DNA of 64,000 nucleotides from NCBI GenBank assembly GCA_045863295.1, contig BTWA01000001.1:96001-160000 (forward strand), in the 5' to 3' direction. Positions 27,162-42,900 of the stretch are shown here, in pieces. Numbering within the stretch: position 1 is the stretch's first letter; every line of letters starts with the position of its first letter. A program made the position numbers and the translations under genes. A model generated the notes under the pieces. It saw nothing but the letters and a program-made list of their open reading frames with translations. It was not told where the DNA came from and searched no databases. This DNA is from Candidatus Hydrogenedentota bacterium (GTDB lineage Bacteria > Hydrogenedentota > Hydrogenedentia > Hydrogenedentales > SLHB01).

Positions 27162-29456
27162 ATGAGTGCAATTGCCGTTAAATCGACGAAGTGGACGTTG
27201 GACATTATGTCCAAGCTCAGCAAGGCGAATGTTCGAGTTCGGAACACTGAGCACATCACGGACGACATGGCCATTGTCTTTGTCGTGAACCATTTCACGC
27301 GGCTCGAGACTATCCTCCTCCCCTACTACCTCAACAAACACACCGGCCGAGAAGTTTGGTCGCTTGCCGCCGCCGAACTGTTTCGTGGCCGCATCGGACA
27401 ATATCTGCTCACCATGGGCAACGTGTCCACCAAGGATCCCGACCGGGACAGAATCATGGTTCGCACACTGATCCTCGGCGAACACCCCTGGATCATTTTT
27501 CCCGAAGGCGCCATGATGAAGAACAAGAAGGTCGTGGACCGTCGGGGCATGTTTCAGATTTGCCTGCAAGGCAAGTGCCGGTTACCCCACACCGGCGCGG
27601 CAGTGATTGCGCTTCGCGCCGAGTTTTACAGGCGCAAATTGCAGCACCTGAAAGACGATCCGGCTTATGAGTCCGTTTTGAAGGAAGTCTCAGAGCAGTT
27701 CGACCTGCAGGATCTCGGCAGCGCGCTGACAAAGCGCACTGTAATCGTGCCAGTGAACGTAACCTATTTCCCTATCCGCGCCGAAGACAATGTTGTGTTG
27801 CGCGTTGCGCGCGGCGTAGCCAAGGATTTGAGCAAGCGGGCACTCGAAGAGCTTTCCGTAGAAGGTACGGTGTTATCGCAGAACACCGACATCGATATAA
27901 CCTTGGGGCCTCCCATCGACATCGGAGAATACCTGGATGCGGCCGAATTCCAGGATCTCTTGACGGAATCCGGGGACCCTGTCGGACTTCAGGAAGAAGA
28001 TGTCCGATCAAAGTTCAGCGAAGCAGGCCGCAGGCTCATGGTCCGCTACATGACGGACATCTATAACATGACGACGGTCAACTATGATCACGTCATCGGG
28101 ACCGTGGTGCGCAATCAGCGGGCGCGCCGATCCTCGGAAAGAACCTACGGCCATCGGATCTATTTGGCTACAGAGCGGCTGCGAAAGGTCAGTGGTTTAC
28201 GGCTGCATCCCGGACTCGAGAAGACGTACCGCGACCTCGCCTACGACGAGCCCTGTCCTTACTTTCAAGACTTTATGGAGGTCTGCATCAAGGATGGGGT
28301 GTTGGAGGAATCCGGCGACGGATACATCAAGCGAATCGGATTGCGGGAGAACGAGGCGGACTTTCACACCGTGCGTCAGGACGACCTGCCTTCGGTAATA
28401 GCGAACGAAATCGAGCCCATGCCGCTGGTCACATCCATCATTCAGAATGTGGCGTATATGCCGCACAAGGTGCTTGGGCGGCACATCCGGGATCAATTTC
28501 AACGCGAAGACGAGTGTAACTTCGAATTGGACTATGCCGAATACGCCATTCCCGGCGAAAGCAAACCTCCCGCCGTCGGAAGGCCGTTTCTTCTGCTTCC
28601 GGAACGGGTGAAAGGCGGTATGGTGCTCATTCACGGCTATATGGCAGCGCCGCTCGAAGTCCGAAACCTCGCCGAATATTTTTATCAGCGCGGTTACGCC
28701 GTCTACGGCGTGCGGCTGAAGGGGCACGGAACGTCGCCCGAAGATCTTGCGCAGACCCGTTGGGAGGAATGGTATGAATCGATGAACCGCGGTTATGCGA
28801 TCATCAAGACGTTGACGGATAATATCGTGATTGGCGGCTTTTCAACCGGAGGCGCCCTGGCGCTGCTGGCAGCGGGCCGCAAGCGGGACAAGGTGAAGGC
28901 GGTCTTCAGCATTTGCGCTCCGCAAACGCTACGGAATTACATGGCCCGTTTCGCTTCCTCTATCGTTTCCATGAACACGTTGATGTCCAAGATCACCGGA
29001 GGTGGAAAGAACTGGGAATACGTCGAAAACAATCCCGAGAATCCCCACATCAATTACACGCGGAATCCACTTCGTGGCGTGAAACAATTGGGCGAGTTGA
29101 TGAAGGCGACCGAGACCGCCTTGCCGGATATTTGCGTGCCGACCTTAATCGTTCAGAGCTACGGCGATCCCATTATCAATCCGGTTAGTGCGATGAACAT
29201 TTTTGAGGGCGTGGGAACGCATCTCAAAGAACTGACAGTTTTCGACCGGCCCAATCACGGAATCATCAACGGAGCGCACTCGGAAGAAGTGTTCGACCGG
29301 GTCGAAAGGTTCCTTACGTTCGCCAGGTCCAAATCCGATGCCGCACTGGCTTCCGAAGCAGCGCGAAAGCGCGTACCCGAAACACCCCGACCCCAACGCT
29401 TTGCAAAGCCGGCCCCTGAAACCGGCGACGCGGAACCGGTGGCCGCACCCGCCTGA
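27162..29456 (+). CDS. Glycerolipid acyltransferase-like domain fused to an alpha/beta-hydrolase (carboxylesterase)
   Basis: N-terminal NHFTRLE and IFPEG; C-terminal LIHGY, RLKGHG, GFSTGG, YGDP and NH (Ser-Asp-His triad). Confidence 0.85.
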   Translation: MSAIAVKSTKWTLDIMSKLSKANVRVRNTEHITDDMAIVFVVNHFTRLETILLPYYLNKHTGREVWSLAAAELFRGRIGQYLLTMGNVSTKDPDRDRIMVRTLILGEHPWIIFPEGAMMKNKKVVDRRGMFQICLQGKCRLPHTGAAVIALRAEFYRRKLQHLKDDPAYESVLKEVSEQFDLQDLGSALTKRTVIVPVNVTYFPIRAEDNVVLRVARGVAKDLSKRALEELSVEGTVLSQNTDIDITLGPPIDIGEYLDAAEFQDLLTESGDPVGLQEEDVRSKFSEAGRRLMVRYMTDIYNMTTVNYDHVIGTVVRNQRARRSSERTYGHRIYLATERLRKVSGLRLHPGLEKTYRDLAYDEPCPYFQDFMEVCIKDGVLEESGDGYIKRIGLRENEADFHTVRQDDLPSVIANEIEPMPLVTSIIQNVAYMPHKVLGRHIRDQFQREDECNFELDYAEYAIPGESKPPAVGRPFLLLPERVKGGMVLIHGYMAAPLEVRNLAEYFYQRGYAVYGVRLKGHGTSPEDLAQTRWEEWYESMNRGYAIIKTLTDNIVIGGFSTGGALALLAAGRKRDKVKAVFSICAPQTLRNYMARFASSIVSMNTLMSKITGGGKNWEYVENNPENPHINYTRNPLRGVKQLGELMKATETALPDICVPTLIVQSYGDPIINPVSAMNIFEGVGTHLKELTVFDRPNHGIINGAHSEEVFDRVERFLTFARSKSDAALASEAARKRVPETPRPQRFAKPAPETGDAEPVAAPA

Positions 29457-29727
29457 GCCGGCATTCCTTTGATCCGATGATCCGCGTGCCGATCGAAATT
29501 GAACAGCAACTCCTGTCTTTTCCAACCCATGATGCACCACCTCCAGAGCCTTACGTAGAGCGGGTGAAATCAGCAGAAGCGTTACACATGCGCAACAAAA
29601 CCGAGCACATGTGTTCGATTCGACGCCTATACTCCAGTCGGATAGACATACAGGCGTCGATTGGGCATATGCCCTAAGATTCTTTTGGACAAACACTTAT
29701 ACATAGCTGTTCCGCCGGATGCGCCGC

Positions 29728-29742
29728 TGGCACGCAGTTTGC
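29728..29742 (+). promoter_or_regulatory. sigma54 (-24/-12) promoter of the respiratory operon
   Basis: TGGCACGCAGTTTGC is an exact match to TGGCACG-N4-TTGC, 47 nt before ATG 29790. Confidence 0.85.
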
Positions 29743-29789
29743 CTATCAGAACCCAACCCTTGTAGCCATGGTGTCTCCGGAGGTGCTGA

Positions 29790-30893
29790 ATGGACGTTTT
29801 TCCCGCTCTCGATCCGATACCCCTTCCCGCACCGGTGTGGGTCTTCAAGGGGTTGCACACGGCGACCCTTGCACTTCATTTTCTTGCAGTTCACTTTCTT
29901 GTGGGGGGGCTCATGTTGGCCACATGGTGGTCACTACGGGGACGACTGCAACGCGATCCCATGATGCTGACGGCGTCCGGGTTGGTCGTACACCGCCTTC
30001 CTCTGGTCATGACCTTTGTCATCAACCTGGGTGTACCGCCGCTCCTCTTTACACAAGTTCTTTACGGCCGAGCTTTTTACACGGGCAGCGTGCTCATCGG
30101 GTTTTGGTGGCTGAGTGTTGTGCCCTTCGCAATAATCGGTTACACAATGCTTTACATCATGGAAAAGATGGCCGCGGGGCGCCGCTTTACGGCGTGGGTT
30201 GGCCTTATAGCCATTGTCGTGGTCCTCAAAGTCGGCATGATTTTTAGCCGGACAATGACCCTCATGCTCCAACCCGAAGGCTGGAACGACATGTATCGAT
30301 CCAGCGCCTTGGGCATGCACTTTGGCGCAACCAGCGACATGTGGGCGCGATGGAGCTTCATGACACTGGCCGCGGTAGGCGTCACTGGCATTGCTTTGAT
30401 GCTAATGGCGTTGAAGAGTGGTATTACACCGGACGTGGCTACGTTCCTGCGCAAGCGAGGGGGTTGGGTGCTGGCCGTGTTCTCCGGTGTGCAACTCATA
30501 CTGGCCGTTTGGGTTCTGCAGACCCAACCTGCGCCCGTGCGAGAAGCACTGATGGCGAGCACAGGCTACAAGATTATTGCGGGACTCTGGGCGCTTAGCG
30601 CCGTAGGCCTGATCGCGATGGGTCTATGGAGTGTCCGATCGGCGTCACCATGGCTCGCATGGGGAGCATTGGCCAAGGGCTTTGTAAACACCGTGTTGCT
30701 CGTTCTCTTTCGCGACGGTATCCGCGATGTAACCCTGACTCAAGCAGGCTTCAACGTGTGGGATCAGCCGGTTGTTACAAATTGGTCCACGGTGGGTCTG
30801 TTTCTCATTCTGTTCGTGGCCGCTGTCGCAATTGTGTTGTGGATGAGTTGGGTGATGCTTCGGGCCAAACCGGCGGAGGAACGCTACGCATGA
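29790..30893 (+). CDS. Polytopic membrane protein, divergent cytochrome bd subunit I (CydA)-like
   Basis: About 9-10 TM helices; LHFLAVHFLVGG parallels IHVLISHFAIGG of 32556..34043; GGAGG RBS. Confidence 0.6.
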   Translation: MDVFPALDPIPLPAPVWVFKGLHTATLALHFLAVHFLVGGLMLATWWSLRGRLQRDPMMLTASGLVVHRLPLVMTFVINLGVPPLLFTQVLYGRAFYTGSVLIGFWWLSVVPFAIIGYTMLYIMEKMAAGRRFTAWVGLIAIVVVLKVGMIFSRTMTLMLQPEGWNDMYRSSALGMHFGATSDMWARWSFMTLAAVGVTGIALMLMALKSGITPDVATFLRKRGGWVLAVFSGVQLILAVWVLQTQPAPVREALMASTGYKIIAGLWALSAVGLIAMGLWSVRSASPWLAWGALAKGFVNTVLLVLFRDGIRDVTLTQAGFNVWDQPVVTNWSTVGLFLILFVAAVAIVLWMSWVMLRAKPAEERYA

Positions 30894-30906
30894 AGGAAGA
30901 CTTCCG

Positions 30907-31380
30907 ATGAGCAAACCAGCCAAGACGCCGCCGCACGGTGAGCCGGTTGGCCGCCGCCGGTTCGTGCAAGTCAGCGTTGGAGCTGTTGGCGCCTGCTACG
31001 CGGCGGTCATTGGATACCCGGTGTACCGCTACCTGGCCACGCCGGCGGTGCGTGCCGAAGCATTGGGGGCGATCACCGAAGTCGCCATTCCTGAGAGCGA
31101 CCTGCCCAAGGCGGGCAGCGTGCTCCGGTTCATGTTTGGTTCCCGGCCAGCCATGTTGATCCACCACACCACCGGCGAGATGGTGTGCTTCGACGCGCAA
31201 TGCACGCATCTCGGTTGCACTGTGCAATTCCAAGCAGAGCAAAATCGCATCTACTGTGCTTGCCACGGCGGCGTGTACGACATGCACACCGGCAAGAATG
31301 TGGCTGGGCCGCCCCCAAAGCCATTGAAACAATACAACGTGGAGGTCGCCGATGGGCAAGTCGTCATCTCTCGCGCATAA
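30907..31380 (+). CDS. Rieske iron-sulfur subunit of a quinol:cytochrome c oxidoreductase
   Basis: Tat-like RRRFV plus TM helix; CTHLGC and CACHGG boxes; GPPPKPL. Confidence 0.95.
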   Translation: MSKPAKTPPHGEPVGRRRFVQVSVGAVGACYAAVIGYPVYRYLATPAVRAEALGAITEVAIPESDLPKAGSVLRFMFGSRPAMLIHHTTGEMVCFDAQCTHLGCTVQFQAEQNRIYCACHGGVYDMHTGKNVAGPPPKPLKQYNVEVADGQVVISRA

Positions 31381-32458
31381 GCCGAGCGGGTCTCCGCTTT
31401 ACGACTGGTTGAACGACCGCCTCGATTTGGATGCGGCGATGGAACTCGCCAAGGCAAAACAGGTGCCGCTGCACAAGCACACTTACTGGTACTATTGGGG
31501 CGGGATCTCTCTCTTCTTCTTCCTCGTTCAACTGGTAAGCGGCGTATTGCTTCTGGTGTACTACAGACCGGGACCCGAAGCCTACGATTCCGTGCGGCAA
31601 ATTACGTACGACATTGAATTCGGCTGGCTCGTCCGATCCGCGCACTCCTGGTCCGCCAATTTGATGGTCGTGGCCATTTTTGTGCACATGTTTTCGGTCT
31701 TCTTCATGAAGGCGTATCGAAAGCCACGGGAATTCGGCTGGTGGAGCGGACTCGCCCTCGCTGGACTGACGCTTGTTTTCGGATTCAGCGGCTATCTGTT
31801 GCCGATGGACGAACTGGCATACTTCGCCACCAAAGTTGGGCTTGAGATTCCACAGGCGATCCCGGGCGTGGGGCAAGCTATCGTTACGCTTGTGCAAGGT
31901 GGAGAGAATGTAACCGAGGTGACCATCCAGCGGTTCTTCGCGTTGCATGCCGTTGTGTTGCCGCTGCTCTTTATTCCGCTGTTGGCGTTTCACTTGTGGC
32001 TTGTGCAAAAGCACGGCAACGCCGTGCCGCCAAGCGAAGAGCAGATTCCTGAGTCCAAACGGCGCTCGATACCGTTCTTTCCCAACTTTCTAACCAAAGA
32101 TCTCGCCATGTGGCTGATCGCGCTGAACGTGATGGCCATTCTCGCGTCGATGTATCCGTGGCAACTCGGCATGCAGGCGGACCCTGCCGCGCCCGCTCCG
32201 GAAGGCATACACCCGGAATGGTATTTCATGAGTCAGTTCCAAGTGTTGAAAGTGCTGGGCCGGTGGTTTCCCGGACTCCTCGGCGAATACCTCGGTATTG
32301 CCTTGTTCACCGCCACCGGCTTGTTGTGGGCGTTGATTCCTTTGTACGACAAGAGCAGCGCGCGGGCGCGTCAGGCACGCAACGCGACATGGGCCGGCGT
32401 GGCCATGCTCCTGGGCCTCATCCTGTTCACATGCTGGGGCTATATTGAAGTCTTATGA
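31352..32458 (+). CDS. Cytochrome b subunit of a Rieske/cytochrome b complex (single chain)
   Basis: Four heme His (RSAHSW...FVHM; FALHA...AFHL), FSGYLLP, PFFP and PEWY. Alternative start at 31439. Confidence 0.95.
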   Translation: MGKSSSLAHKPSGSPLYDWLNDRLDLDAAMELAKAKQVPLHKHTYWYYWGGISLFFFLVQLVSGVLLLVYYRPGPEAYDSVRQITYDIEFGWLVRSAHSWSANLMVVAIFVHMFSVFFMKAYRKPREFGWWSGLALAGLTLVFGFSGYLLPMDELAYFATKVGLEIPQAIPGVGQAIVTLVQGGENVTEVTIQRFFALHAVVLPLLFIPLLAFHLWLVQKHGNAVPPSEEQIPESKRRSIPFFPNFLTKDLAMWLIALNVMAILASMYPWQLGMQADPAAPAPEGIHPEWYFMSQFQVLKVLGRWFPGLLGEYLGIALFTATGLLWALIPLYDKSSARARQARNATWAGVAMLLGLILFTCWGYIEVL

Positions 32459-32555
32459 TTCTGAACATCACCGCCACTATCGGGAACGAGTGCAGGGAGC
32501 CGGCCTTTGCCGCAACGAGGCGGCTCCCCACGCACTCCATTGAGGAGATCGCACC

Positions 32556-34043
32556 ATGAATTACCCCGTGTGGGACGTTCCCATTCTCGGAAGCGGCTGG
32601 GTGATAGGGATCATCGCCATCATCCACGTGCTCATCTCCCACTTTGCGATAGGCGGCGGATTCTATCTTCCCATGGCCGAGCGCAAGGCGCTTCGCGAAG
32701 GCCGCGACGATTGGATGGCGCAGGTCAAGAAGCACGCGAAATTCTTCCTGATTCTTACCGGAGTCTACGGCACGATGACCGGTGTCGGCATATGGTACGC
32801 GATTGGTCTTGCAAGCCCGGAAGCCACGAGCACGTTAATTCACAACTTTGTGTTTGGATGGGCCATCGAATGGACCTTCTTCTTCGTTGAAGTGGCGGCC
32901 GCCGCCGTCTATTACTACACGTGGGGAAGGGTTTCCGACAAGACACATCTCACCATCGGCTGGATCTATGCGGGATCCGCCTGGTTGAGCCTTGTCATCA
33001 TCAACGGCATTCTGACGTTCATGCTGACTCCGGGTGAAGGCTGGTTGTCTGTCGCGGGCACAGGCGCGGAGGCCAGCAAGTTCTGGCACGCCTTCTTCAA
33101 CCCTACCTATTGGCCAAGTCTTGTGTTGCGCACGCTCATCTGCATAACGCTCGCGGGTGTGTGGGCGCTGGTCACCGCCAGCCGCATCGACGGATATGAG
33201 AAGCCCCAACTAAAAGCCGAAATCATTCGCTGGTCGGCAAAATGGCTCATTCCCGGATATCTACTGCTTCCCTTTGCGTTCGCGTGGTATTTGTACATGG
33301 TTCCGGAAACGCAGCGTGCGTTATTGTCGTTGGGCATGGCGACCATCGGGCAGGGCGTGTTCACGCAGGTGACGCGCGCTGCCCTGGTCGCTGTGATGTC
33401 ATCCGCGACGATTCTGGCGATCGTGTATTTCCTGGCCTACCGTAATCCCCGCGACTTCTATCTTGGCCATGCGCTTTCCGTGTTGTTTCTAGCGCTCGCG
33501 GCCACGGCGTCGACCGAGCAGGCCCGCGAAATGCTGCGCAAACCCTATGTGATTGGCCGGCACATGTACTCAAACGGGATTCGAGTGAACGATGTGAAGC
33601 GGTTTAACGAAGAAGGCTATCTGACCCGCACCGTATGGGCGTCGGAAGTGGATCGCGAAGCGTGGGCTCGAATCGATGCGAGCGCTGTGGAAGGGAGAGT
33701 GGCTTTTGCATCGCTCGCGGCAACAGATCGCACAGCCCACCTCAACCGAGGCCTCTTGATGTTGCGCGGCCAATGCTATTCCTGTCACACGGTCGATGGC
33801 TACCGTTCACTGCGAAAACTGCTTTCCGGACGCGATCGTGACGCGATCGGAAATATCCTCGGCATGCTGCATAATTATGCGGACGACTCTCCCTACAAGA
33901 AATACATGCCGCCACTGGTGGGCACGGAAAAGGAGATACAAGCGCTCGGCGACTACCTGAACACGTTGGTCAATGGCGACAATGCAAACAAAGAGCCGTT
34001 ACCGGCTCTGGCCCAACTGCCGGCTGTTCCCACGCAGCCGTAA
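32556..34043 (+). CDS. Cytochrome bd subunit I (CydA)-like protein with a C-terminal cytochrome c domain
   Basis: WAIEWTFFFVE, WLSLVIINGILTFMLTP, FFNP and EQAREMLRKPYVI (GRQPW-equivalent); CYSCH heme c motif and distal MPP; GAGGAG RBS. Confidence 0.82.
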   Translation: MNYPVWDVPILGSGWVIGIIAIIHVLISHFAIGGGFYLPMAERKALREGRDDWMAQVKKHAKFFLILTGVYGTMTGVGIWYAIGLASPEATSTLIHNFVFGWAIEWTFFFVEVAAAAVYYYTWGRVSDKTHLTIGWIYAGSAWLSLVIINGILTFMLTPGEGWLSVAGTGAEASKFWHAFFNPTYWPSLVLRTLICITLAGVWALVTASRIDGYEKPQLKAEIIRWSAKWLIPGYLLLPFAFAWYLYMVPETQRALLSLGMATIGQGVFTQVTRAALVAVMSSATILAIVYFLAYRNPRDFYLGHALSVLFLALAATASTEQAREMLRKPYVIGRHMYSNGIRVNDVKRFNEEGYLTRTVWASEVDREAWARIDASAVEGRVAFASLAATDRTAHLNRGLLMLRGQCYSCHTVDGYRSLRKLLSGRDRDAIGNILGMLHNYADDSPYKKYMPPLVGTEKEIQALGDYLNTLVNGDNANKEPLPALAQLPAVPTQP

Positions 34044-34076
34044 GAGGCCAAGTGCCTTCATTGGGAGGTCACAATC

Positions 34077-34415
34077 GTGGACCCCGCAGAAGCGTTGTTC
34101 CCTGATTTGGTGATTGGGCTGGTTATCATTGCTGTCAGCTTGCCGCTCATTCTTAACAAGATTCCACCCAATCACTTCTACGGGGTGCGAATTCCGAAGG
34201 CGTTTGAATCGGAACGGAATTGGTATGACATCAACGCATACGGCGGCCGAGCGCTGTGTAGTTGGGGTGCAGTCATTCTTCTGGCCGCATTCGCGAAAAA
34301 CCGGCTCGCCGCGGCGGGTGTACTCGACGGGAATTTGATCACTTTGGCGCTGCCTGTTTTTGCGTGCGTGGCCGCAGCGATCATTCAAATCCTATGGTAC
34401 GCGCGCAAGCTTTAA
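34077..34415 (+). CDS. SdpI/YhfL family membrane protein
   Basis: KIPPNHFYGVR...SERNWYDINAYGG; three TM helices; GGAGG RBS before GTG. Confidence 0.85.
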   Translation: MDPAEALFPDLVIGLVIIAVSLPLILNKIPPNHFYGVRIPKAFESERNWYDINAYGGRALCSWGAVILLAAFAKNRLAAAGVLDGNLITLALPVFACVAAAIIQILWYARKL

Positions 34416-34422
34416 CCTGCTT

Positions 34423-35382
34423 CTATAACTTGGATCGCGCCGACACCCATCCGCTATCGATATCCGCCTGTAGACCTGCGCCGCGATACGTATCCTCCGA
34501 AGCAAGATTGCCTTTGAGGTAAACGTCGAACCACGCGACCATATAGCGTTGCGCCAAGGCGCGCACTTCGTTCTGATCGCGAGTACCGCCGCCACAGAAG
34601 ATCTGGCCCAGGCTGTTGGGTCCCGGGCTTGACTCTAGGAAGTCGATGTGGGCCGAGCCCAATACGGTGACCTCAATGACCGGGGCTACTGCATAGTCGA
34701 ACAATCGTATGGGGTATGGGCTGTATTCGCGACCGGCGCAATATCCAATTTCCGACATGAGCCACATGACCGGCACGGCCGTATGGGCAAATCCCGTGCC
34801 CAGTTCATAGCCCGGCTGCTCGTAGCCGTTGTCGAGACTCACGACCGCGTCAAATCGTGGATTGCGGAATGCGGATGCCAACGCCAGTTGCCCGCCTTGC
34901 GAATGTCCGGTGACGCCAATGTGATCCATGTCGAGCAAGCCAAAAAGCGGCGACTCAGGATTGACGTTTTCGGCGTCTGCCCAGTCCAACAAGGCATCGC
35001 CTTGCTCGAGTTGCGCGTCCCGAGTCGAAAAACCAATTCCGAACAGGGCAGGCTCCGGGAATGCGCGGATGATACATACATAGCCCCATTGCGCGAGTGT
35101 TTGGGCATACCGGTAGTAAGCGCCGCGAGGCTGATTCCAACCGCTGTGCAATACCACCAGGGGAAACGGTCCCTGATCCTTTTCCGCGGGATAGGCGATG
35201 GTCAACGGGAGATTATGAGAAAGAAATGTAGTCTCATACTGGACCACGGTAAGTGGCCCGGGATAGCCAACCACAGCGGGTTCCACTGTGGGACAGCCCT
35301 GGCCCGGCAAAAGGGTTGCCATCAGGGCCAGCCAAGCGAACCCCGCGATTTCCCTGGATCGGCTCCGATTCCATTTCATCAT
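34423..35382 (-). CDS. Secreted or lipoprotein alpha/beta hydrolase (chlorophyllase/cutinase-like)
   Basis: Signal ending GQGC; PLVVLHSG, LAQWGY, GHSQGG and SAHIDF. Confidence 0.82.
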   Translation of the reverse strand: MMKWNRSRSREIAGFAWLALMATLLPGQGCPTVEPAVVGYPGPLTVVQYETTFLSHNLPLTIAYPAEKDQGPFPLVVLHSGWNQPRGAYYRYAQTLAQWGYVCIIRAFPEPALFGIGFSTRDAQLEQGDALLDWADAENVNPESPLFGLLDMDHIGVTGHSQGGQLALASAFRNPRFDAVVSLDNGYEQPGYELGTGFAHTAVPVMWLMSEIGYCAGREYSPYPIRLFDYAVAPVIEVTVLGSAHIDFLESSPGPNSLGQIFCGGGTRDQNEVRALAQRYMVAWFDVYLKGNLASEDTYRGAGLQADIDSGWVSARSKL

Positions 35383-36669: not shown

Positions 36670-36783
36670 GTGTTCGATTTTGCGGATGTGTACGTCTGGT
36701 TCCTGCACAATAAATGGTGGATGTGGGGCGTCTTGCCGTTTATAGTTCTCGTAATCATTGTCCGGTCGATCCAGGGCCGTTGA
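36670..36783 (+). CDS. 37-aa single-pass membrane microprotein, not in the ORF track
   Basis: GAGGAG 6 nt before GTG; translates MFDFADVYVWFLHNKWWMWGVLPFIVLVIIVRSIQGR*. Confidence 0.6.
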   Translation: MFDFADVYVWFLHNKWWMWGVLPFIVLVIIVRSIQGR

Positions 36784-36971
36784 ATCGATCGCGCAACTCC
36801 CTTCACCTTCCCTTGGTGCTGTGCCGTGCCGATTCGCGCCTCAGTGGGCTTGCTTGCAGCCTCTATTGACTTACCTCCAATCCTGCGTAAATTTGACAAG
36901 AACCCGCGAAATTAAGGTACTATTTGCGGTTTCATGTTGGGTCGGATTCCACTTTTTGGAGATTGGTTTTC

Positions 36972-38750
36972 ATGCATCCTTATCGCAGTCACACGTGCGG
37001 CGAATTGCGGAAGTCCCACGTGGGACAAGGCGTACGAATGTCCGGATGGGTTCATCGCAAGCGGGATCACGGCGGCGTCATCTTTATTGACTTGCGTGAC
37101 CACTATGGGATTTCACAAGTGGTAGTCAATCCGGATTCCCCCTGCTTTTCGGAAGCGGACCGCGTGCGTGTCGAGAGCGTAATCGTGCTTTCCGGCCAGG
37201 TAGTCGCGCGGACCGAAGGCACGGTAAACGCCAACTTGGCCACCGGGGAAATCGAAGTGGTGGCCGATGCACTGGCCATCGAATCGCAGTCGGAAGTCAT
37301 ACCGTTTCCCATTAATCAGGAGATGGATTACCCGGAAGAAACGCGTCTGACGTACCGGTTTCTGGATTTGCGCCGCGAGCGGTTGCACCAAAATATTCTC
37401 CTGCGAAGCAAGACGGCCCAATTGACGCGCAAACACTTGACCGACCGCGGATTCGTCGAATATCACACTCCGATTCTCACGAGTTCTTCCCCGGAAGGCG
37501 CACGCGACTACCTGGTGCCAAGCCGCCTGTATCCCGGTCAGTTCTATGCGCTGCCGCAGGCGCCACAACAGTTCAAGCAATTACTTATGATCGGCGGGTT
37601 TGATCGGTATTTTCAGATTGCACCCTGTTTTCGCGACGAGGATAGCCGGGCAGACCGCAGCCCCGGCGAGTTTTATCAGATCGATATGGAAATGTCCTTT
37701 GTTACCCAGGAAGACATCTTTCATGAGGTGGAACTCGTGCTCGTACGGCTGTTCAAGGAACTCTCCACAACAACGATCGTCTCGGAATCGTTCCCCCATA
37801 TCCCCTATCGTGTGTCCATGGAGAAGTACGGTACGGACAAGCCCGATCTCCGGTTTGCCATGGAGATGGTCGAGGTATCCGATCTCTTCGGCGGCAGCGG
37901 CCTGAAGGTATTCGCCGACGCGGTTGCAAAAGGCGGCGCCGTGAAAACGATTCTCGTCGAAAAAGCGGCCGACCAGTCCAGAAAATTCTTTGATCAGGCC
38001 GAAGAATTTGCCAAGGGTGAAGGCGCGAAAGGGCTTGCGTGGGTCGCCCTCCGCGACGGCGAGATGAAAGGACCCATCGTCAAGTTCTTCTCGGATTCCG
38101 AGAAGCAGGGAATTATTGAACGTACCGGCGCCAAGGAAGGCGATGTGCTCTTTTTTGGGGCGGGTGACCGCAAGACAACCAACGAACTTCTTGGCAAAGT
38201 GCGCGTATACCTCGCGAAACAGCTTGATCGCATCGATTCCAAACTTGCGGCATTTTGCTGGATCGTCGACTTTCCCATGTTTGAGTACAACGAGGAAGAA
38301 AAGAGAGTCGATTTCTCCCACAATCCGTTTTCGATGCCGCAGGGCGGTATGGATGCGCTGATAGCGAAGGATCCGCTGGAGGTACTCGCGTTTCAGTACG
38401 ACGTGGTATGCAACGGCATTGAGTTGTCGTCCGGCGCGATTCGAAACCACCGGCCGGATATCATGATGAAGGCATTTGAAATTGCGGGATACGATGCCAC
38501 GATTGTAAAGACAAAGTTTCCCGCCCTTTGGAACGCGTTTCACTTTGGCGCTCCACCCCACGGCGGTATTGCGCCGGGATTCGATCGGATAGTCATGTTG
38601 TTGGCCGACGAGCCGAATATTCGCGAAGTGATAGCATTCCCGCTCAATCAGAAGGCGCAAGATCTCATGATGGGCGCACCCGGAGAAGTGACGAAGAAGC
38701 AATTGGATGAGTTGCACTTGCAAGTAAAGTATCCGCCTGTGAAGGCCTGA
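36972..38750 (+). CDS. aspS: Aspartate--tRNA ligase, likely non-discriminating Asp/Asn
   Basis: YRSHTCGEL, RDHGGVIFIDLRD, PEGARDYLVP, ALPQAPQQFKQ, FRDED and GAPPHGGIAPG. Confidence 0.98.
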   Translation: MHPYRSHTCGELRKSHVGQGVRMSGWVHRKRDHGGVIFIDLRDHYGISQVVVNPDSPCFSEADRVRVESVIVLSGQVVARTEGTVNANLATGEIEVVADALAIESQSEVIPFPINQEMDYPEETRLTYRFLDLRRERLHQNILLRSKTAQLTRKHLTDRGFVEYHTPILTSSSPEGARDYLVPSRLYPGQFYALPQAPQQFKQLLMIGGFDRYFQIAPCFRDEDSRADRSPGEFYQIDMEMSFVTQEDIFHEVELVLVRLFKELSTTTIVSESFPHIPYRVSMEKYGTDKPDLRFAMEMVEVSDLFGGSGLKVFADAVAKGGAVKTILVEKAADQSRKFFDQAEEFAKGEGAKGLAWVALRDGEMKGPIVKFFSDSEKQGIIERTGAKEGDVLFFGAGDRKTTNELLGKVRVYLAKQLDRIDSKLAAFCWIVDFPMFEYNEEEKRVDFSHNPFSMPQGGMDALIAKDPLEVLAFQYDVVCNGIELSSGAIRNHRPDIMMKAFEIAGYDATIVKTKFPALWNAFHFGAPPHGGIAPGFDRIVMLLADEPNIREVIAFPLNQKAQDLMMGAPGEVTKKQLDELHLQVKYPPVKA

Positions 38751-38792
38751 CAACCCATCAACAGTGAAGCTAACGCCAGACAGGTTGACACT

Positions 38793-39302
38793 ATGAGCGC
38801 GAAGCCAAACGTTCCCGTGGTCCGGCCCGTTGCGTGGGCCAGCGCGCTCATTCAGATTCCCGTGGTCGTGGGGTTCATACTCCTGTTTCGTCCGATGGGG
38901 TATCCACTGGGGATTGCCGTCGCGGCCGTCACCTATGTAGTGCTCTCGTACTCATTCCGGACTTACGTCAACCGCCACCACAGTCGCGGCATGCGGCGAA
39001 TCTGGGCAGGCGATCATGCAGGAGCTATTCCCGAGTTCGAAAAGGCCTACGACTATTTTTCACGCCATTCCTGGATCGACAAATACAGATACGTCTGGTC
39101 CTCGTCGCGTTTGGCCTACCGGGAAATGGCGTTGTGCAACGCTGCGTATTGCCACATGCAGTTGGGAAACGTCAGCGCGGCCAAATCCAGTCTCCGCAAA
39201 GCCGTTGAGGAATTCCCCAAAGGCCATATGGCATCGGCCACGTTGAACATGATCGAGACTATTGAGAAATCCAATGGGGACCAGTTAGCGGACTCCCACT
39301 AG
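38793..39302 (+). CDS. Small membrane protein with TPR motifs
   Basis: Two TM helices, then GDHAGAIPEFEKA and ALCNAAYCHMQLG...LRKAVEEFP. Confidence 0.75.
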   Translation: MSAKPNVPVVRPVAWASALIQIPVVVGFILLFRPMGYPLGIAVAAVTYVVLSYSFRTYVNRHHSRGMRRIWAGDHAGAIPEFEKAYDYFSRHSWIDKYRYVWSSSRLAYREMALCNAAYCHMQLGNVSAAKSSLRKAVEEFPKGHMASATLNMIETIEKSNGDQLADSH

Positions 39303-39787
39303 CCCTGCCACCGGTATCGCAATACCGATGCGGTGTCACCCGGAAACTCGGCGGTCTGTACAAAGCCGACGCGCTCGACCAGAGTCCGTGACGCTTGGTT
39401 GAGGGCGTCAACTCCCGCCACAAGCGTCGTTTGTTTTAGTGTACGGACTGCGTAGTCCATCAGAGCCCGTAGCGATTCCTCGCCATATCCTTCGCCCCAG
39501 TAAAACGGATAGAAACCAATCAGCGGTTCTACCTCGTCGCACCAATCCGCCTTTCGTAACCCCGCGAAGCCGATGGTATGGCCGTAGTCATGTGGCCGAA
39601 TAACCCAGAGCCCCAATTCATTCTCGAACCGCGCCACGACTTGTTCCGCTTCTTCCAAAGGAAGAATCCGATCGTCCCATAGATACCGCCGCACGTCCGG
39701 ATCGATCCAGAGCACCCACAAGTCATACGCATCCGCTGCGCTGGCAGGCGTCATGCGCAGCCGGGTCGTAATCAAATCGTTCTTCAC
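39299..39787 (-). CDS. GNAT family N-acetyltransferase (RimJ/RimL type)
   Basis: TTRLRM, YWGEGYGEE and NQASRTLVERVGF. Confidence 0.9.
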   Translation of the reverse strand: MKNDLITTRLRMTPASAADAYDLWVLWIDPDVRRYLWDDRILPLEEAEQVVARFENELGLWVIRPHDYGHTIGFAGLRKADWCDEVEPLIGFYPFYWGEGYGEESLRALMDYAVRTLKQTTLVAGVDALNQASRTLVERVGFVQTAEFPGDTASVLRYRWQG

Positions 39788-39976
39788 AATCTACGGCTCC
39801 TGCATTCCTCCGAGAAGTATGCGCAATGGGAGATTCCGGGACAACCCCGTGGCAGCCCAAAGCGCGATTTTCGGTTGGGGAATGCGGGTCATGCGGTTAC
39901 ATGCGCTCGCGAATATGACGGCGTGGCGCTGACGCATATTTCGCGGTACAATGAATGCACTCACTGGCGGTTACTC

Positions 39977-42900
39977 ATGCGGAAGCGTCGACTCACACAT
40001 TCCTTACTTGTGCCGGCCGTTTTTCTGTCCGTGGCCCATTGCGCCTGCGGACTGGAGTTGCTTTGGAAAACGGATTTGGTTTCTTCTTCCCGCGGTTTGC
40101 CTTTGGCCGCTGATTTTGACGGCGACGGACTGCCGGAAATCATCGCCACCACACGGTTCGACGGCGCCGTATGGGTGCTCGACAACGTCGGGCGGGAAAT
40201 TCACAAGTTTACCCGTGACGCCTGGCTGGAAGGCGGCCTTGCGTCCAGCACTTCGTCCCCAGGCCGCCCGCGAATGCTGGCATACCAGCAGTCGGATGGA
40301 CGTGTTGTTTTGTTCAATGCGTCCACCGGATTGAGCGTGTATGCGGACGTTCCGGGAAACCCGGCCATCGGATGCGCTCCCGTGTTCGCCAATCTGAATG
40401 GCAAGGGCGCGGAAGAGATTCTGATTACCCGTAAGGACGGTGTCCTCTCGGCGTTTAACAATGCGCTTGAGCCCATCTGGCTCTACAGTGCCGGGAGCCC
40501 AATCGAGTCCGCACCTTCCGTCGCCCTTCTCTATACCGAGTTCGCGAGCGTCTACGTTTTGACCGCCGATGGCGTTCTTCATGCCGTTCGCGGCGACGGC
40601 ATGCCCATGTGGCGAGTTGCCCTGGCAAATGCCGCTCCGCGTTTCCCGTCCGTAACCGATGTCACGGTCGTGGAGATTGGCCGGGACGAACCGGCGGTAC
40701 TGGTGTCGGACGCGGCCGGTATCCTGTATGCCTTTGGTGCCGCCACTGGACGCGAGTTTTGGCGTGTCCAAGCCGCGGCCAGTCCAATGGGCGCACCCGC
40801 CTATATCACCATTTCAGGTCACCAGGACAACGCATTCGTTCTAATGAGCGAATCAGGCGAATTGGCAGTCGTTGACCGCGACGGCACATTGACTGCAACC
40901 GGCACATTGCCCAAAGGTCGGTACATTGCAAGGCCGTTGGTGGCCGACGTGGACGAGGATGGCGAACTTGAAATTGTGGCCGCGACCAACAACTGGCAAA
41001 TTGTAGTAGCCAATCGGACCGGCGAAGTCGAGGAATGGATTGATTTGCGCGGGAGTGCCCGCGAAGGTCTGATTATGGCTGACGTCAACGACGACGGCCG
41101 CCTGGAATTGCTGGCGGCCACGGATTGCGCCGCTGTCTACTGCTTTGCCACACGTGCACGTTCCGGTTGGGCGCACCCGCGATGTGGCGCCGCGAATACG
41201 GGCGTCGCCTCGGTCATCACGCCACGCCCAGTCCCCACGGACGCCATTGCCGTTTCTTCCCTGCGCTATACACCCAAAGTAACCGTAGCACCTCACACTA
41301 CAGGATCCACGTATACAACCGCCGTCTTGGAGTTTCAGCGCGGACACGGTGATCGCCATGTAGTGGCGACCATCCGGCAAGAAGGCCGCATAGTCGGCAG
41401 TACCGCAAAATCGCCGGAATCCGGAGAACTCGCGGTGACCGTTGCGCGGCGTTTTCCCGTAGAATTGACGTGCGATGTAATTGTGTATGGTTCCAGCGGG
41501 CGGCCCATAGGGCAGATGTTGGGAATTCCTGCCCTGCCCCCAAAAGACGACACCGTGCGGATGCATTCCGCCGAATCGTTACTGACATTAATGAACAGCC
41601 GTGGCGATGCATACCGTGTTCCTGCTTCATGGATGTTGCCCTCCGTTTCCGGCCGGTCCATGTGGCATGTGGCAAGTCACGCGCCTGAGGTATGGCGGGC
41701 GTTGCATATCCAAGACGATCCATTCATCGCGGATGCGGGAATGCGGGTCGTGGGGTCCGCGGCGAAGGAGCAGTCCGTTATTCGTGCGGGACATCCCGTC
41801 TGGGAAGTTCTTAAGCACAGTGAAAAACCGTTTGTAGTAATGAACGACTATTTCCGGCCACGCCAAGCCTACAGCAATGCCGATTATCAGGCCCTGGTCG
41901 AGATGGGCGGCGATCGGTTTCTCGGGTTTCAAGTACATGAGTGGGCCTATCCCATCTGGAAGCAACAACTCGAAGGCGCGGCTCAACCGCCATCCACACG
42001 CGATCAAGCCGCTCAAATCGTTCGCGACGGATACGCCACGGTCGCCGCGTTGGCGAACAACCACATGTTTCCGGGAGAAGGGTACGGACTTTTTCATCAC
42101 GTCGCCTACGAACAAGGCGCCGGCATGGCCTATCTGGAAGTGGGTGAAAATATACCCTGTGCTCCCCTGCTTACTGCTGCAATACGGGGGGCGGCGCGAC
42201 AGTTCGGGGGCCGGCCGTGGGGCGCATATATCTCGAATTGGTTTCGCGGTTCGGTCACTGACGGTCGTCTGGAAAACGCGGATTCCATAGGTTGGCGCAA
42301 GCCGGAAGACAGCATGACTCGATTTGGCGGTCATTCGCCTTCGCTCGAATTTCGGTTGGCCATGGCCGCATACCTCGCAGGCGCCTCAATCTTGCAGCAC
42401 GAGTCGGATCACTATCTCGGATCGGTGTATGCAACCGAGTACTCGAACACTTCCGTCGTTCTGTCCCGCCACGGCGCGGCCATGAAGCGATGGTTTGATT
42501 TCGCACACAACGATCGGGATCGCGGTATCCCTTATACGCCCGTCGCGTTCATGCTGGACGCAAACCATGGATGGCGGCCCCGCGAACTTATCTTTGGGCT
42601 ATGGCCTCCCACACGCGCGGAACAATCGATCGAGCGCATCTTGTTTCATACCTACTCGTTTAGCGGCCGGCTGGATTTCGAATCCGGCTATCTGACCAAC
42701 GGACGGTATGGCGATATCTTCGACATCGTGACCAGTGCTATCTCCACAAAGGGGCTCGAAGGGTATGGCGTGCTCTGGCCGCTGGGCGATGTTCCGCTTT
42801 CGGTCACACAGCGCCAATCCATTATGACGTATGTGGAACGAGGCGGAATCGCTGTACTGGATGGTTCCATCGCGCGGCAGTTTACACCTCATTTCACCGG

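What the first reader, a model, noticed from the sequence alone, without database searches (positions are those of the whole stretch)
29790..34043. Rieske/cytochrome b complex sandwiched between two CydA-like proteins: candidate bc-bd hybrid respiratory supercomplex
Seen: a four-gene operon of CydA-like, Rieske, cytochrome b, and CydA-like with CxxCH; there is no separate cytochrome c1/f or CydB. By eye, the second CydA-like protein keeps the helix-I His and the two helix-III Glu, has Arg where the b558-ligating His follows NP, and lacks a Q-loop. The cytochrome b has PEWY but reads YYWGG where b6 carries the heme ci Cys. Known: canonical bd oxidases oxidise quinol directly, and divergent bd-superfamily members with heme c and no quinol site have been described bioinformatically. 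Inference: electrons flow quinol > cytochrome b/Rieske > fused heme c > bd-like site, adding Q-cycle energy conservation to a bd-type reductase whose acceptor (O2, NO or other) is unknown.
Basis: partly seen in the sequence, partly recalled or inferred. Interest (0 to 1): 0.78.

Follow-up and report, generated by a model that had tools for sequence, protein, structure and literature searches.

The report
Rieske/cytochrome b operon with bd-like oxidase
Four tightly packed genes join a quinol-oxidising Rieske/cytochrome b unit to a two-subunit, copper-free relative of cytochrome bd oxidase that carries its own haem c, a cassette found in many bacterial phyla that probably forms a self-contained quinol-to-oxygen chain nobody has yet purified.

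Summary
Window 29790-34043 (+) holds four genes. They encode P1 (367 aa), a Rieske protein (157 aa), a fused b6-type cytochrome b (368 aa) and P4 (495 aa).

- **P4** is a cytochrome bd subunit-I relative. It keeps the equivalents of E. coli H19, E99, E107 and H126 and the E445-x-x-R-x-P motif. It has Arg in place of the b558 His, no Q-loop, and a C-terminal class-I monohaem c domain.
- **P1** has no Pfam hit, but profile comparison (hhalign 96%) and predicted fold show it is a paralogue of the P4 membrane domain.
- **Family:** P4 and P1 match the OR-C1a/OR-C1b pair described in the main text of Murali, Gennis and Hemp (2021 preprint).
- **What differs:** a Rieske/cytochrome b pair sits between them. 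This order is kept in every locus with enough flank, and titles name 11 phyla.
- **Subclade:** linked P4s form one clade (SH-aLRT 100) and are monohaem (72 of 74). Unlinked relatives are mostly dihaem.
- **Complex prediction:** weak support only.

The most likely path is quinol, Rieske, P4 haem c, bd-type dihaem site, then O2. No biochemistry exists for it. This scan has already found the same cassette on other genomes. Verdict: new variant of a known kind, interest moderate to high.

The parts
29790..30893 (+). P1: 367-aa membrane protein, the CydB-like / OR-C1b-like partner subunit. It is a paralogue of the P4 membrane domain, with an invariant His30 in helix 1, no proton-channel glutamates, and a ninth C-terminal helix.
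   Evidence: ORF. No Pfam or NCBIfam hit. hhalign A2 against A1: 96.3%, E 1.5e-9, P1 residues 4-315 to P4 residues 3-331, with H30 on H24. AF2 pLDDT 94.2 with helices including 332-358. Foldseek top hits are bd oxidase subunits. Invariant H30, W107, Y118, R187 and R308 in 68 sequences.
30907..31380 (+). Rieske 2Fe-2S protein (157 aa) with a twin-arginine N-terminus and both cluster boxes (C99-T-H101-L-G-C104 and C117-A-C119-H120).
   Evidence: Pfam PF00355, E 6.3e-14. Best NCBIfam similarity is to b6f PetC, below its cut-off. C99, H101, C104, C117, C119 and H120 are invariant, and R16 and R17 are conserved in at least 90% of 61 sequences.
31352..32458 (+). Cytochrome b (368 aa), a b6-like N-half fused to a subunit-IV-like C-half. 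It has four haem His (H98, H112, H199, H214), PEWY at 288-291, and Trp49 at the haem ci Cys position. It overlaps the Rieske gene by 29 nt.
   Evidence: Pfam PF00033, PF13631 and PF00032. phmmer to cytochrome b6 1q90_B, E 8e-53, with W on the Cys of FYCIGG. Invariant columns in 61 sequences.
32556..33545 (+). P4 membrane domain (residues 1-330), an eight-helix cytochrome bd subunit-I-like (OR-C1a-like) domain. It has H24, E105, E112, H131 and the E325-x-x-R328-K-P330 motif, Arg192 in place of the b558 His, and no Q-loop.
   Evidence: Pfam PF01654 on residues 15-203. Alignment to Geobacillus CydA 5doq_A and E. coli CydA. Motif comparison with E. coli E445-Y-G-R-Q-P-W. AF2 model pLDDT 89.1. Foldseek top 10 hits are all CydA chains.
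33546..34043 (+). P4 C-terminal periplasmic class-I monohaem cytochrome c domain (residues 331-495). CxxCH lies at residues 407-411 (nt 33774-33788), and the invariant Met451-Pro-Pro is the likely sixth ligand.
   Evidence: The A1 profile hits CcoP, c555, c6 and QcrC haem c domains in the PDB. C407, C410, H411 and M451 are invariant in 63 sequences. 72 of 74 linked P4s have one CxxCH.

Best explanation
The four genes encode one respiratory module. The Rieske/cytochrome b pair oxidises membrane quinol by a Q-cycle. It has no cytochrome c1 or f of its own, so the Rieske cluster passes the high-potential electron to the single haem c fused to the periplasmic C-terminus of P4. From there the electron goes to the bd-type dihaem site in P4 helices 1-4 and 8. 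That site reduces O2 with protons drawn from the cytoplasm through the conserved Glu105/Glu112/His131 channel. P1 is the catalytically silent partner subunit, taking the CydB-like place.

The module would be a copper-free quinol:O2 chain. By the established bookkeeping of bc complexes and bd oxidases it would conserve about twice the charge per electron of a canonical quinol bd oxidase.

Shown here: gene anatomy, folds, conserved ligands, and obligate gene linkage. Inferred: electron path, physical complex, O2 as acceptor, and energy yield.
For: 1. **Linkage from the P4 side.** The 22 closest loci (54-72% identity) were examined. 19 have all four genes in the same order, 2 begin inside cytochrome b at a contig end, and 1 is a 1.75-kb contig holding P4 alone.
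2. **Linkage from the cytochrome b side.** 77 of 77 new loci carry P4 directly downstream, and 71 show the plain four-gene order.
3. **Translational coupling.** In 74 non-redundant loci the median gaps are -4, -26 and +27 nt.
4. **Spread.** Record titles name 11 phyla among 75 linked loci.
5. **One enzyme.** P4 and P1 lie adjacent, with no Rieske/cytochrome b, in 56 of the 58 more distant loci.
6. **A separate clade.** All 75 linked P4s, plus one of unknown context, lie on one side of a branch with SH-aLRT 100 and stem length 0.90.
7. **Haem count.** Linked P4s have one CxxCH in 72 of 74. Unlinked P4s have two in 45 of 58.
8. **Catalytic residues in P4.** The equivalents of E. coli H19, E99, E107 and H126 and the E445 motif are invariant in 63 sequences.
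9. **Rieske and cytochrome b look functional.** Cluster boxes, four haem His and PEWY are invariant in 61 sequences.
10. **The genome's other Rieske/cytochrome b.** It lies on another contig, its cytochrome b is 36% identical, and it has its own monohaem c gene beside it.
11. **Cassette without a haem-copper oxidase.** 6 of the 34 cassette-bearing genomes of the phylum have no COX1 match at E 1e-20, one of them 100% complete. In those genomes the cassette cannot simply be feeding a haem-copper oxidase.
12. **Complex prediction: weak support.** The job was cytochrome b + Rieske + P4. The score was 0.40, the median of runs at 0.22, 0.40 and 0.41, and the best of 3 controls was 0.01. The mark was reached by 116 of 157 solved complexes and 2 of 215 mismatches. 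At 0.60 or under it was reached by only 18 of those 157 and by both mismatches that passed. The runs agree in at least 70% of contacts, and partner pLDDT is 80.
Against: - There is no biochemical, spectroscopic or expression datum for any member, and no RNA run was listed.
- The complex prediction is only 'weak support', which the tool states is more often wrong than right without a strong prior.
- A missing cytochrome c gene in a Rieske/cytochrome b operon does not prove the acceptor is encoded next door. In green sulfur bacteria the monohaem cytochrome c-556 is the product of its own gene, CT0073 (abstract of PMC10172866, seen in the listing). That this gene lies away from the Rieske/cytochrome b genes is recalled and comes from no call.
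- The equivalence of E325 with the E. coli haem ligand E445 rests on a shared motif and helix position. No profile alignment reached that region (one search stops at residue 147).
- The genome also has a canonical CydA and three COX1 homologues, so the module is not needed to explain aerobic growth here.
- O2 as substrate is assumed from family resemblance only.
Confidence: 0.55

Rival explanations
1. The operon encodes two separate enzymes that are only co-regulated. The Rieske/cytochrome b complex reduces a cytochrome c encoded elsewhere. The OR-C1-type bd-like oxidase takes electrons from that or another soluble or tethered cytochrome c through its fused haem c. There is no fixed supercomplex and no direct Rieske-to-P4 transfer.
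For: Unlinked OR-C1 pairs work without any neighbouring Rieske/cytochrome b (56 of 58 loci), so the oxidase can accept electrons from other donors. In green sulfur bacteria the cytochrome c that serves the Rieske/cytochrome b complex is the product of its own gene (abstract of PMC10172866 in the listing). The complex prediction is only weak.
Against: The gene order is invariant across 11 named phyla, with overlapping reading frames. The linked P4s are a separate clade that has shed the second haem c typical of unlinked relatives. That pattern is what one expects if a soluble-donor entry haem became unnecessary. Controls scored 0.00-0.01 against 0.40.
Confidence: 0.22
2. The module is wired as proposed, but its physiological acceptor is not O2. 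The bd-like site could reduce NO, H2O2 or another small oxidant, so that the operon serves detoxification or anaerobic respiration.
For: No member has been assayed. The authors who defined OR-C infer O2 reduction only from conserved residues (main text of the preprint). 6 of 34 cassette genomes in the phylum lack a COX1 match, so some carriers may not be conventional aerobes.
Against: P4 keeps all the canonical bd oxidase residues that I could align: the equivalents of H19, E99, E107 and H126 and the E445 motif. 28 of 34 cassette genomes also carry COX1, against 46 of 101 genomes without the cassette (related genomes are not independent).
Confidence: 0.15
3. P1 and P4 are not catalytic. They are degenerate bd-fold scaffolds that merely anchor a cytochrome c1-like haem c to the Rieske/cytochrome b complex, which then reduces a downstream soluble acceptor.
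For: P4 lacks the b558 site and the Q-loop. P1 lacks the channel glutamates.
Against: About 54 columns are invariant in P4 across 63 sequences from many phyla. They include the active-site His, both channel Glu, H131 and the E-x-x-R-x-P motif. This is hard to explain for a mere anchor. The same pair also exists as a stand-alone two-gene unit.
Confidence: 0.05

Closest known systems
[quoted passage not shown]
   Same: The a-type subunit has eight helices, no quinol site and a C-terminal periplasmic haem c. It keeps His19 and both channel glutamates, with the one-residue deletion between them. The b-type subunit is a paralogue without the channel. Both are predicted, not assayed.
   Different: Here the two genes are separated by a Rieske and a cytochrome b gene. 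The linked P4s form their own clade (SH-aLRT 100) and are monohaem. P1 has a ninth helix. The passages I read describe OR-C1b as 'adjacent' to OR-C1a and do not mention Rieske/cytochrome b. The figure and supplement were not visible, and the journal version is not held.
Canonical cytochrome bd quinol oxidase CydAB(X) (for example E. coli bd-I 6rko, Geobacillus 5doq)
   Same: The fold matches (Foldseek). So do the equivalents of H19, E99, E107 and H126 and the E445 motif, and the pseudo-symmetric two-subunit design.
   Different: There is no b558 ligand (Arg192 replaces the His), no Q-loop, and so no quinol site. Electron entry is through a fused haem c. The partner is a CydA paralogue, not CydB. 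The genome has a separate true CydA on another contig.
Cytochrome b6f and Rieske/cytochrome b (bc) complexes
   Same: The cytochrome b is 8e-53 to b6, with b6-type spacing of the helix-D histidines (H199 and H214) and PEWY. The Rieske protein has a Tat signal and both cluster boxes.
   Different: b6 and subunit IV are fused into one 368-aa protein. There is no haem ci Cys (Trp49), and no cytochrome f, c1 or fused c in the complex's own genes.
Obligate complex III-IV supercomplexes (actinobacterial bcc-aa3; bc1-cbb3)
   Same: The idea is the same: a quinol-oxidising bc unit hard-wired to a terminal oxidase through a bound haem c, with no soluble carrier.
   Different: In those, the oxidase is a haem-copper enzyme and the haem c belongs to the bc side. 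Here the oxidase would be bd-type and copper-free, and the haem c is fused to the oxidase. Physical association is not shown.
OR-N 'bd-like oxidases' of Nitrospira, Nitrospina and anammox bacteria (passages of PMC3578206 read; PMC10839748)
   Same: These are also bd-superfamily members that lack the quinol site, sit in operons with other electron-transfer proteins, and are uncharacterised.
   Different: They have 14 helices and no fused haem c, lie next to nitrite oxidoreductase genes, and belong to a different family of the superfamily.

Membership tests
Cytochrome bd superfamily (CydA fold) | Sequence or fold match to cytochrome bd subunit I | tested here: met
   P4: Pfam PF01654, E 1.4e-18 on the N-half, and its Foldseek top 10 hits are all CydA chains. 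P1: no Pfam hit, but hhalign to the P4 family gives 96.3% and its Foldseek top hits are bd subunits with TMq 0.65-0.70.
Cytochrome bd superfamily (CydA fold) | Helix-1 His (E. coli H19), kept by all superfamily paralogues according to the preprint | tested here: met
   P4 H24 aligns to E. coli H19 and is invariant in 63 sequences. P1 H30 aligns to P4 H24 and is invariant in 68 sequences.
Quinol-oxidising bd oxidases (qOR) | Haem b558 ligand His186 and the Q-loop quinol site | tested here: not met
   Arg192 aligns to the b558-type His of Geobacillus CydA and is invariant. The TM6-TM7 loop is about 22 residues in the model. Pfam matches only profile positions 4-191 of 418.
OR-C1a (Murali et al.) | [quoted passage not shown] | tested here: met
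   The model has eight long helices followed by a c-type domain. CxxCH lies at residues 407-411 with an invariant Met451. The profile hits class-I cytochromes c.
OR-C1a (Murali et al.) | Proton-channel glutamates kept, with a one-residue deletion between them as in Geobacillus | tested here: met
   E105 and E112 have 6 residues between them, against 7 between E. coli E99 and E107.
OR-C1 (a+b pair) | The OR-C1b paralogue is encoded adjacent to OR-C1a | tested here: not met
   In the window and in all linked loci two genes (Rieske and cytochrome b) lie between them. The pair is adjacent only in the more distant relatives (56 of 58 loci). The window is therefore a variant of the family's operon, not its described form.
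OR-C1 (a+b pair) | Placement by the authors' HMM classifier or tree | not testable with these tools
   The authors' HMMs and alignments are in supplements that I could not open. My tree holds only OR-C1-like sequences.
Rieske/cytochrome b complex | Four bis-His haem ligands, a Qo PEWY motif, and Rieske CxHxGC / CxCH boxes | tested here: met
   H98, H112, H199, H214 and P288-Y291 are invariant. C99, H101, C104, C117, C119 and H120 are invariant.
Cytochrome b6f | Haem ci Cys, split b6 and subunit IV, and cytochrome f | tested here: not met
   Trp49 sits at the Cys position. There is one fused 368-aa protein. No cytochrome f gene lies in the operon. The NCBIfam b6 and PetC models score below their cut-offs.
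Respiratory III-IV type supercomplex | Stable physical association of the quinol-oxidising unit and the terminal oxidase | tested here: inconclusive
   Complex prediction gave weak support: score 0.40 against a best control of 0.01. At 0.60 or under the mark was reached by only 18 of 157 solved complexes and by both of the 2 mismatches (out of 215) that passed. No experiment exists.

The most novel reading that the evidence does not exclude
The cassette encodes a third kind of hard-wired respiratory end-piece, alongside bc-aa3 and bc-cbb3. It would be a copper-free bc-bd hybrid supercomplex in which the oxidase's own fused haem c has replaced cytochrome c1/f. This would give bd-type high-affinity O2 reduction with Q-cycle energy conservation. 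It would be spread by transfer of the whole four-gene unit across at least 11 phyla, and in some genomes it would be the only oxidase working at the cytochrome c level.
Probability: 0.45. Interest if true: 0.8.

Novelty: new variant of a known kind. Interest (0 to 1): 0.62.

Why it matters
Cytochrome bd oxidases are textbook quinol oxidases with a low energy yield, and they are thought to bypass complex III. A widespread bd-type enzyme fed by a Rieske/cytochrome b complex would change that picture in several ways:
- It would give bacteria a copper-independent, probably high-affinity oxidase that still gains the Q-cycle's charge separation.
- It would show that cytochrome c1 can be replaced by a haem c domain borne by the oxidase.
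- It would add an unrecognised terminal oxidase to metabolic reconstructions of Acidobacteriota, Verrucomicrobiota, Hydrogenedentota, Chlorobiota relatives and others. There, P1 is annotated 'hypothetical protein', and P4 matches only half of the bd Pfam model.

The hypothesis is directly testable by purification from a cultivable carrier.

Tried and rejected
- **Direct P1/P4 similarity.** BLASTP of P1 against P4 found nothing significant (best E 0.37). Only the profile comparison showed the relationship.
- **P1 against the PDB.** The P1 sequence and its profile both gave 0 hits.
- **P4 profile against E. coli CydA.** The alignment reached only residues 15-147 (probability 46%). The E325/E445 equivalence therefore rests on a motif, not on an alignment.
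- **Promoter and terminator scan.** The scan of 29300-34700 found 0 sigma-70-like sites (2.1 expected). It found 8 terminator-like sites against 6.0 expected, none convincingly placed.
- **Expression.** No RNA holder was listed, and read laying was not used.
- **SdpI-like gene.** This gene lies 33 nt downstream (34077-34415). It gave no hit of 60 residues or more at E 1e-5 in the 80 loci, so I do not count it as part of the cassette.
- **First tree count.** It needed 3 label changes. This traced to two rows that my script mislabelled. L015 has all four genes, and L019 is a 1.75-kb contig. With those corrected and the root placed on an unlinked row, the linked set lies on one side of a branch.
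- **Rows dropped before the tree.** I dropped P4s shorter than 420-440 aa and those without an R-[KRQ]-P-aromatic motif.
- **Literature.** Searches, and reading passages of six papers, found no text that describes the Rieske/cytochrome b-linked form. One search term was rejected for syntax. The journal version of the Murali paper is not held.
- **Melainabacteria 'complex III/IV fusion'.** The fusion reported in PMC6349859 involves a C-type haem-copper oxidase, so I rejected it as the same thing.

Full report
**1. What is there**

- P1, 29790-30893, 367 aa
- P2, 30907-31380, 157 aa
- P3, 31352-32458, 368 aa
- P4, 32556-34043, 495 aa

They are separated by 13 nt, a 29-nt overlap and 97 nt. Upstream there is a 333-nt gap after an unrelated acyltransferase/hydrolase gene. 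Downstream lie a small SdpI-like gene and then a convergent gene.

Pfam and NCBIfam name P2 a Rieske protein. They name P3 a cytochrome b whose N-half is b6-like and whose C-half is subunit-IV-like. P4 matches cytochrome bd subunit I only over its first 200 residues. P1 matches nothing.

**2. The two flanking proteins**

*P4 residues.* P4 aligns to Geobacillus CydA and to E. coli CydA, with these equivalences:
- H24 to H19
- E105 to E99
- E112 to E107, with 6 rather than 7 residues between the two Glu
- H131 to H126
- R192 at the position of the b558-type His after the NP motif

Further on, P4 has E325-M-L-R-K-P-Y. E. coli has E445-Y-G-R-Q-P-W with the same spacing at the end of helix 8. That E445 is a haem ligand is my recollection of the E. 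coli structures, and the equivalence is an inference.

All these residues are invariant in 63 family members, as are C407, C410, H411 and M451.

*P4 model.* The AlphaFold2 model has pLDDT 89.1. It shows eight long helices, a TM6-TM7 loop of about 22 residues (so no Q-loop), and then a helical c-type domain. Its best ten PDB matches are all CydA chains. The C-terminal profile matches class-I cytochromes c such as CcoP, c6 and QcrC.

*P1.* P1 shows nothing by BLASTP against P4. Its family profile, however, aligns to the P4 family profile over 291 columns, at 96.3% and E 1.5e-9, with H30 on H24 and no glutamates at the channel positions. Its model has pLDDT 94.2. Bd oxidase subunits are its best PDB matches, with TMq 0.65-0.70. 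It has an extra ninth helix at residues 332-358. Public clusters of P1 relatives are all labelled 'hypothetical protein' and carry no Pfam family.

**3. The middle pair**

The Rieske protein has a twin-arginine N-terminus and invariant C-x-H-x-G-C and C-x-C-H boxes.

The cytochrome b has four invariant haem histidines and b6-type spacing in helix D (H199 and H214). It has an invariant PEWY. An invariant Trp49 aligns with the Cys of 'FYCIGG' in C. reinhardtii b6.

No cytochrome c1 or f gene is present. The only CxxCH of the operon is in P4.

**4. Relatives**

*Search from P4.* The scan of one genome per species found 201 relatives, and 80 were kept. They fall into two sets.
- The 22 closest loci are 54-72% identical. 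Of these, 19 show P1-Rieske-cytochrome b-P4, 2 start inside cytochrome b at a contig end, and 1 is a 1.75-kb contig.
- The other 58 are 36-52% identical and have no Rieske or cytochrome b within about 6 kb. In 56 of them a P1 homologue lies directly next to P4 (downstream in 50, upstream in 6). The remaining 2 end at a contig edge.

*Search from cytochrome b.* This search found at least 591 relatives. All 77 new loci among the best 80 have P4 downstream, and 71 show the plain four-gene order. L103 carries, in addition, an unlinked P4'-P1' pair right behind the cassette.

*Features of the linked set.* In 74 non-redundant complete cassettes the median gene gaps are -4, -26 and +27 nt. P4 has one CxxCH in 72 of them. 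The 58 unlinked P4s have two CxxCH in 45, one in 6, eight in 5, three in 1 and none in 1.

*Tree.* I built an IQ-TREE (quick mode) of 134 membrane domains. It puts all 75 linked rows, plus the short-contig row, on one side of a branch with SH-aLRT 100 and length 0.90. This holds once two script mislabels are corrected.

*Distribution.* Record titles of the 75 linked loci name these phyla:

| Phylum | Loci |
|---|---|
| Acidobacteriota | 18 |
| Verrucomicrobiota | 17 |
| Hydrogenedentota | 13 |
| Chlorobiota | 6 |
| Nitrospirota | 2 |
| Planctomycetota | 2 |
| Sumerlaeota | 2 |
| Omnitrophota | 2 |
| Lentisphaerota | 2 |
| Armatimonadota | 2 |
| Actinomycetota | 1 |
| No phylum named | 8 |

Some MAG labels may be wrong.

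In the window's own phylum, 34 of 135 genomes have a linked-type P4 (58-76% identity).

**5. Genome context**

The window's genome is 6.3 Mb and 96% complete. It also has:
- a canonical CydA
- three COX1 homologues
- a second cytochrome b, 36% identical to P3, which sits beside a NarI-Rieske fusion protein and its own monohaem cytochrome c next to NarH/NarJ-like genes

So the genome's other Rieske/cytochrome b unit brings its own c-type cytochrome, and the cassette's does not.

Across the phylum, 28 of 34 cassette genomes also have COX1, against 46 of 101 genomes without the cassette. Six cassette genomes have no COX1 match, and one of these is 100% complete. These genomes are related, so this is description and not a test.

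**6. How it most likely works**

P4 and P1 are the a and b subunits of one bd-like enzyme. They travel as a pair with or without the middle genes.

In the linked clade a Rieske/cytochrome b unit without its own c-type cytochrome has been fixed between them, and P4 has a single haem c. The simplest reading is this path: quinol, Qo site, Rieske cluster, P4 haem c, bd-type dihaem site, O2. Protons for water would come from the cytoplasm through E105, E112 and H131.

By the standard bookkeeping, a bc complex moves about one net charge per electron and a bd oxidase one. The module would therefore move about two charges per electron, against one for a quinol bd oxidase.

A three-chain prediction (cytochrome b, Rieske, P4) gave weak support:
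- The score was 0.40, the median of runs at 0.22, 0.40 and 0.41, and the best of 3 controls was 0.01.
- The mark was reached by 116 of 157 solved complexes and 2 of 215 mismatches.
- At 0.60 or under it was reached by only 18 of those 157 and by both mismatches that passed.
- The runs agree in at least 70% of contacts, and partner pLDDT is 80.

It raises my odds a little and proves nothing. No interface was given.

**7. What is known**

The main text of Murali, Gennis and Hemp (bioRxiv 2021) defines OR-C. In their description, OR-C1a has eight helices and C-terminal haem c, and OR-C1b lies 'adjacent'. Both are predicted O2 reductases that use cytochrome c (passages read).

The passages I read do not mention Rieske/cytochrome b next to OR-C. 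The figure, the supplement and the journal version were not available to me, so I cannot exclude that the linked operon is shown there. Six full-text searches and passages of five further papers gave no description of it.

This scan has already reported the same cassette on at least six other genomes, with the same reading. Those are unchecked AI notes. I reached the points above from my own calls.

**8. Verdict**

The feature is a new variant (a distinct, widely spread, Rieske/cytochrome b-linked monohaem subclade) of a bioinformatically known but biochemically untouched family. Interest is 0.62.

Noticed in passing
own genome, contig C39:37231-43974 (locus L087 covers 36759-40319): The genome's second Rieske/cytochrome b unit is unusual. 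A 439-aa protein fuses a nitrate reductase gamma (NarI) domain to a Rieske domain. It is followed by a 370-aa cytochrome b (36% identical to P3) and a 197-aa monohaem cytochrome c, directly downstream of NarH- and NarJ-like genes.
   Followed up: partly
L103:3430-10321: One genome, titled Omnitrophota, carries the linked four-gene cassette. Immediately behind it lies an unlinked P4'-P1' pair (36% and 27% identical to the window's proteins). Both forms of the bd-like enzyme therefore sit in tandem.
   Followed up: no
window 34077-34415 (+): A 112-aa SdpI/YfhL-family membrane protein starts 33 nt after the P4 stop. No counterpart was seen next to the cassette in the 80 loci, so it is probably not part of the module.
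   Followed up: partly
window 27162-29456 (+): The upstream gene encodes a 764-aa fusion of an acyltransferase domain with an alpha/beta-hydrolase (S33-type) domain. It is unrelated to the operon.
   Followed up: no
genomes G112, G008, G009, G010, G011, G032 (same phylum): Six genomes have the linked-type P4 but no COX1 match at E 1e-20. G112 is given as 100% complete. In these the cassette may be the only oxidase that works at the cytochrome c level.
   Followed up: no
G062:C22:15419-16861, G068:C704:7308-8765, L010:2774-4288: Three P4 orthologues carry one in-frame stop each. It is TAG in the two G genomes, and one stop in L010. These may be sequencing errors, pseudogenes or something else. 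I did not examine them.
   Followed up: no
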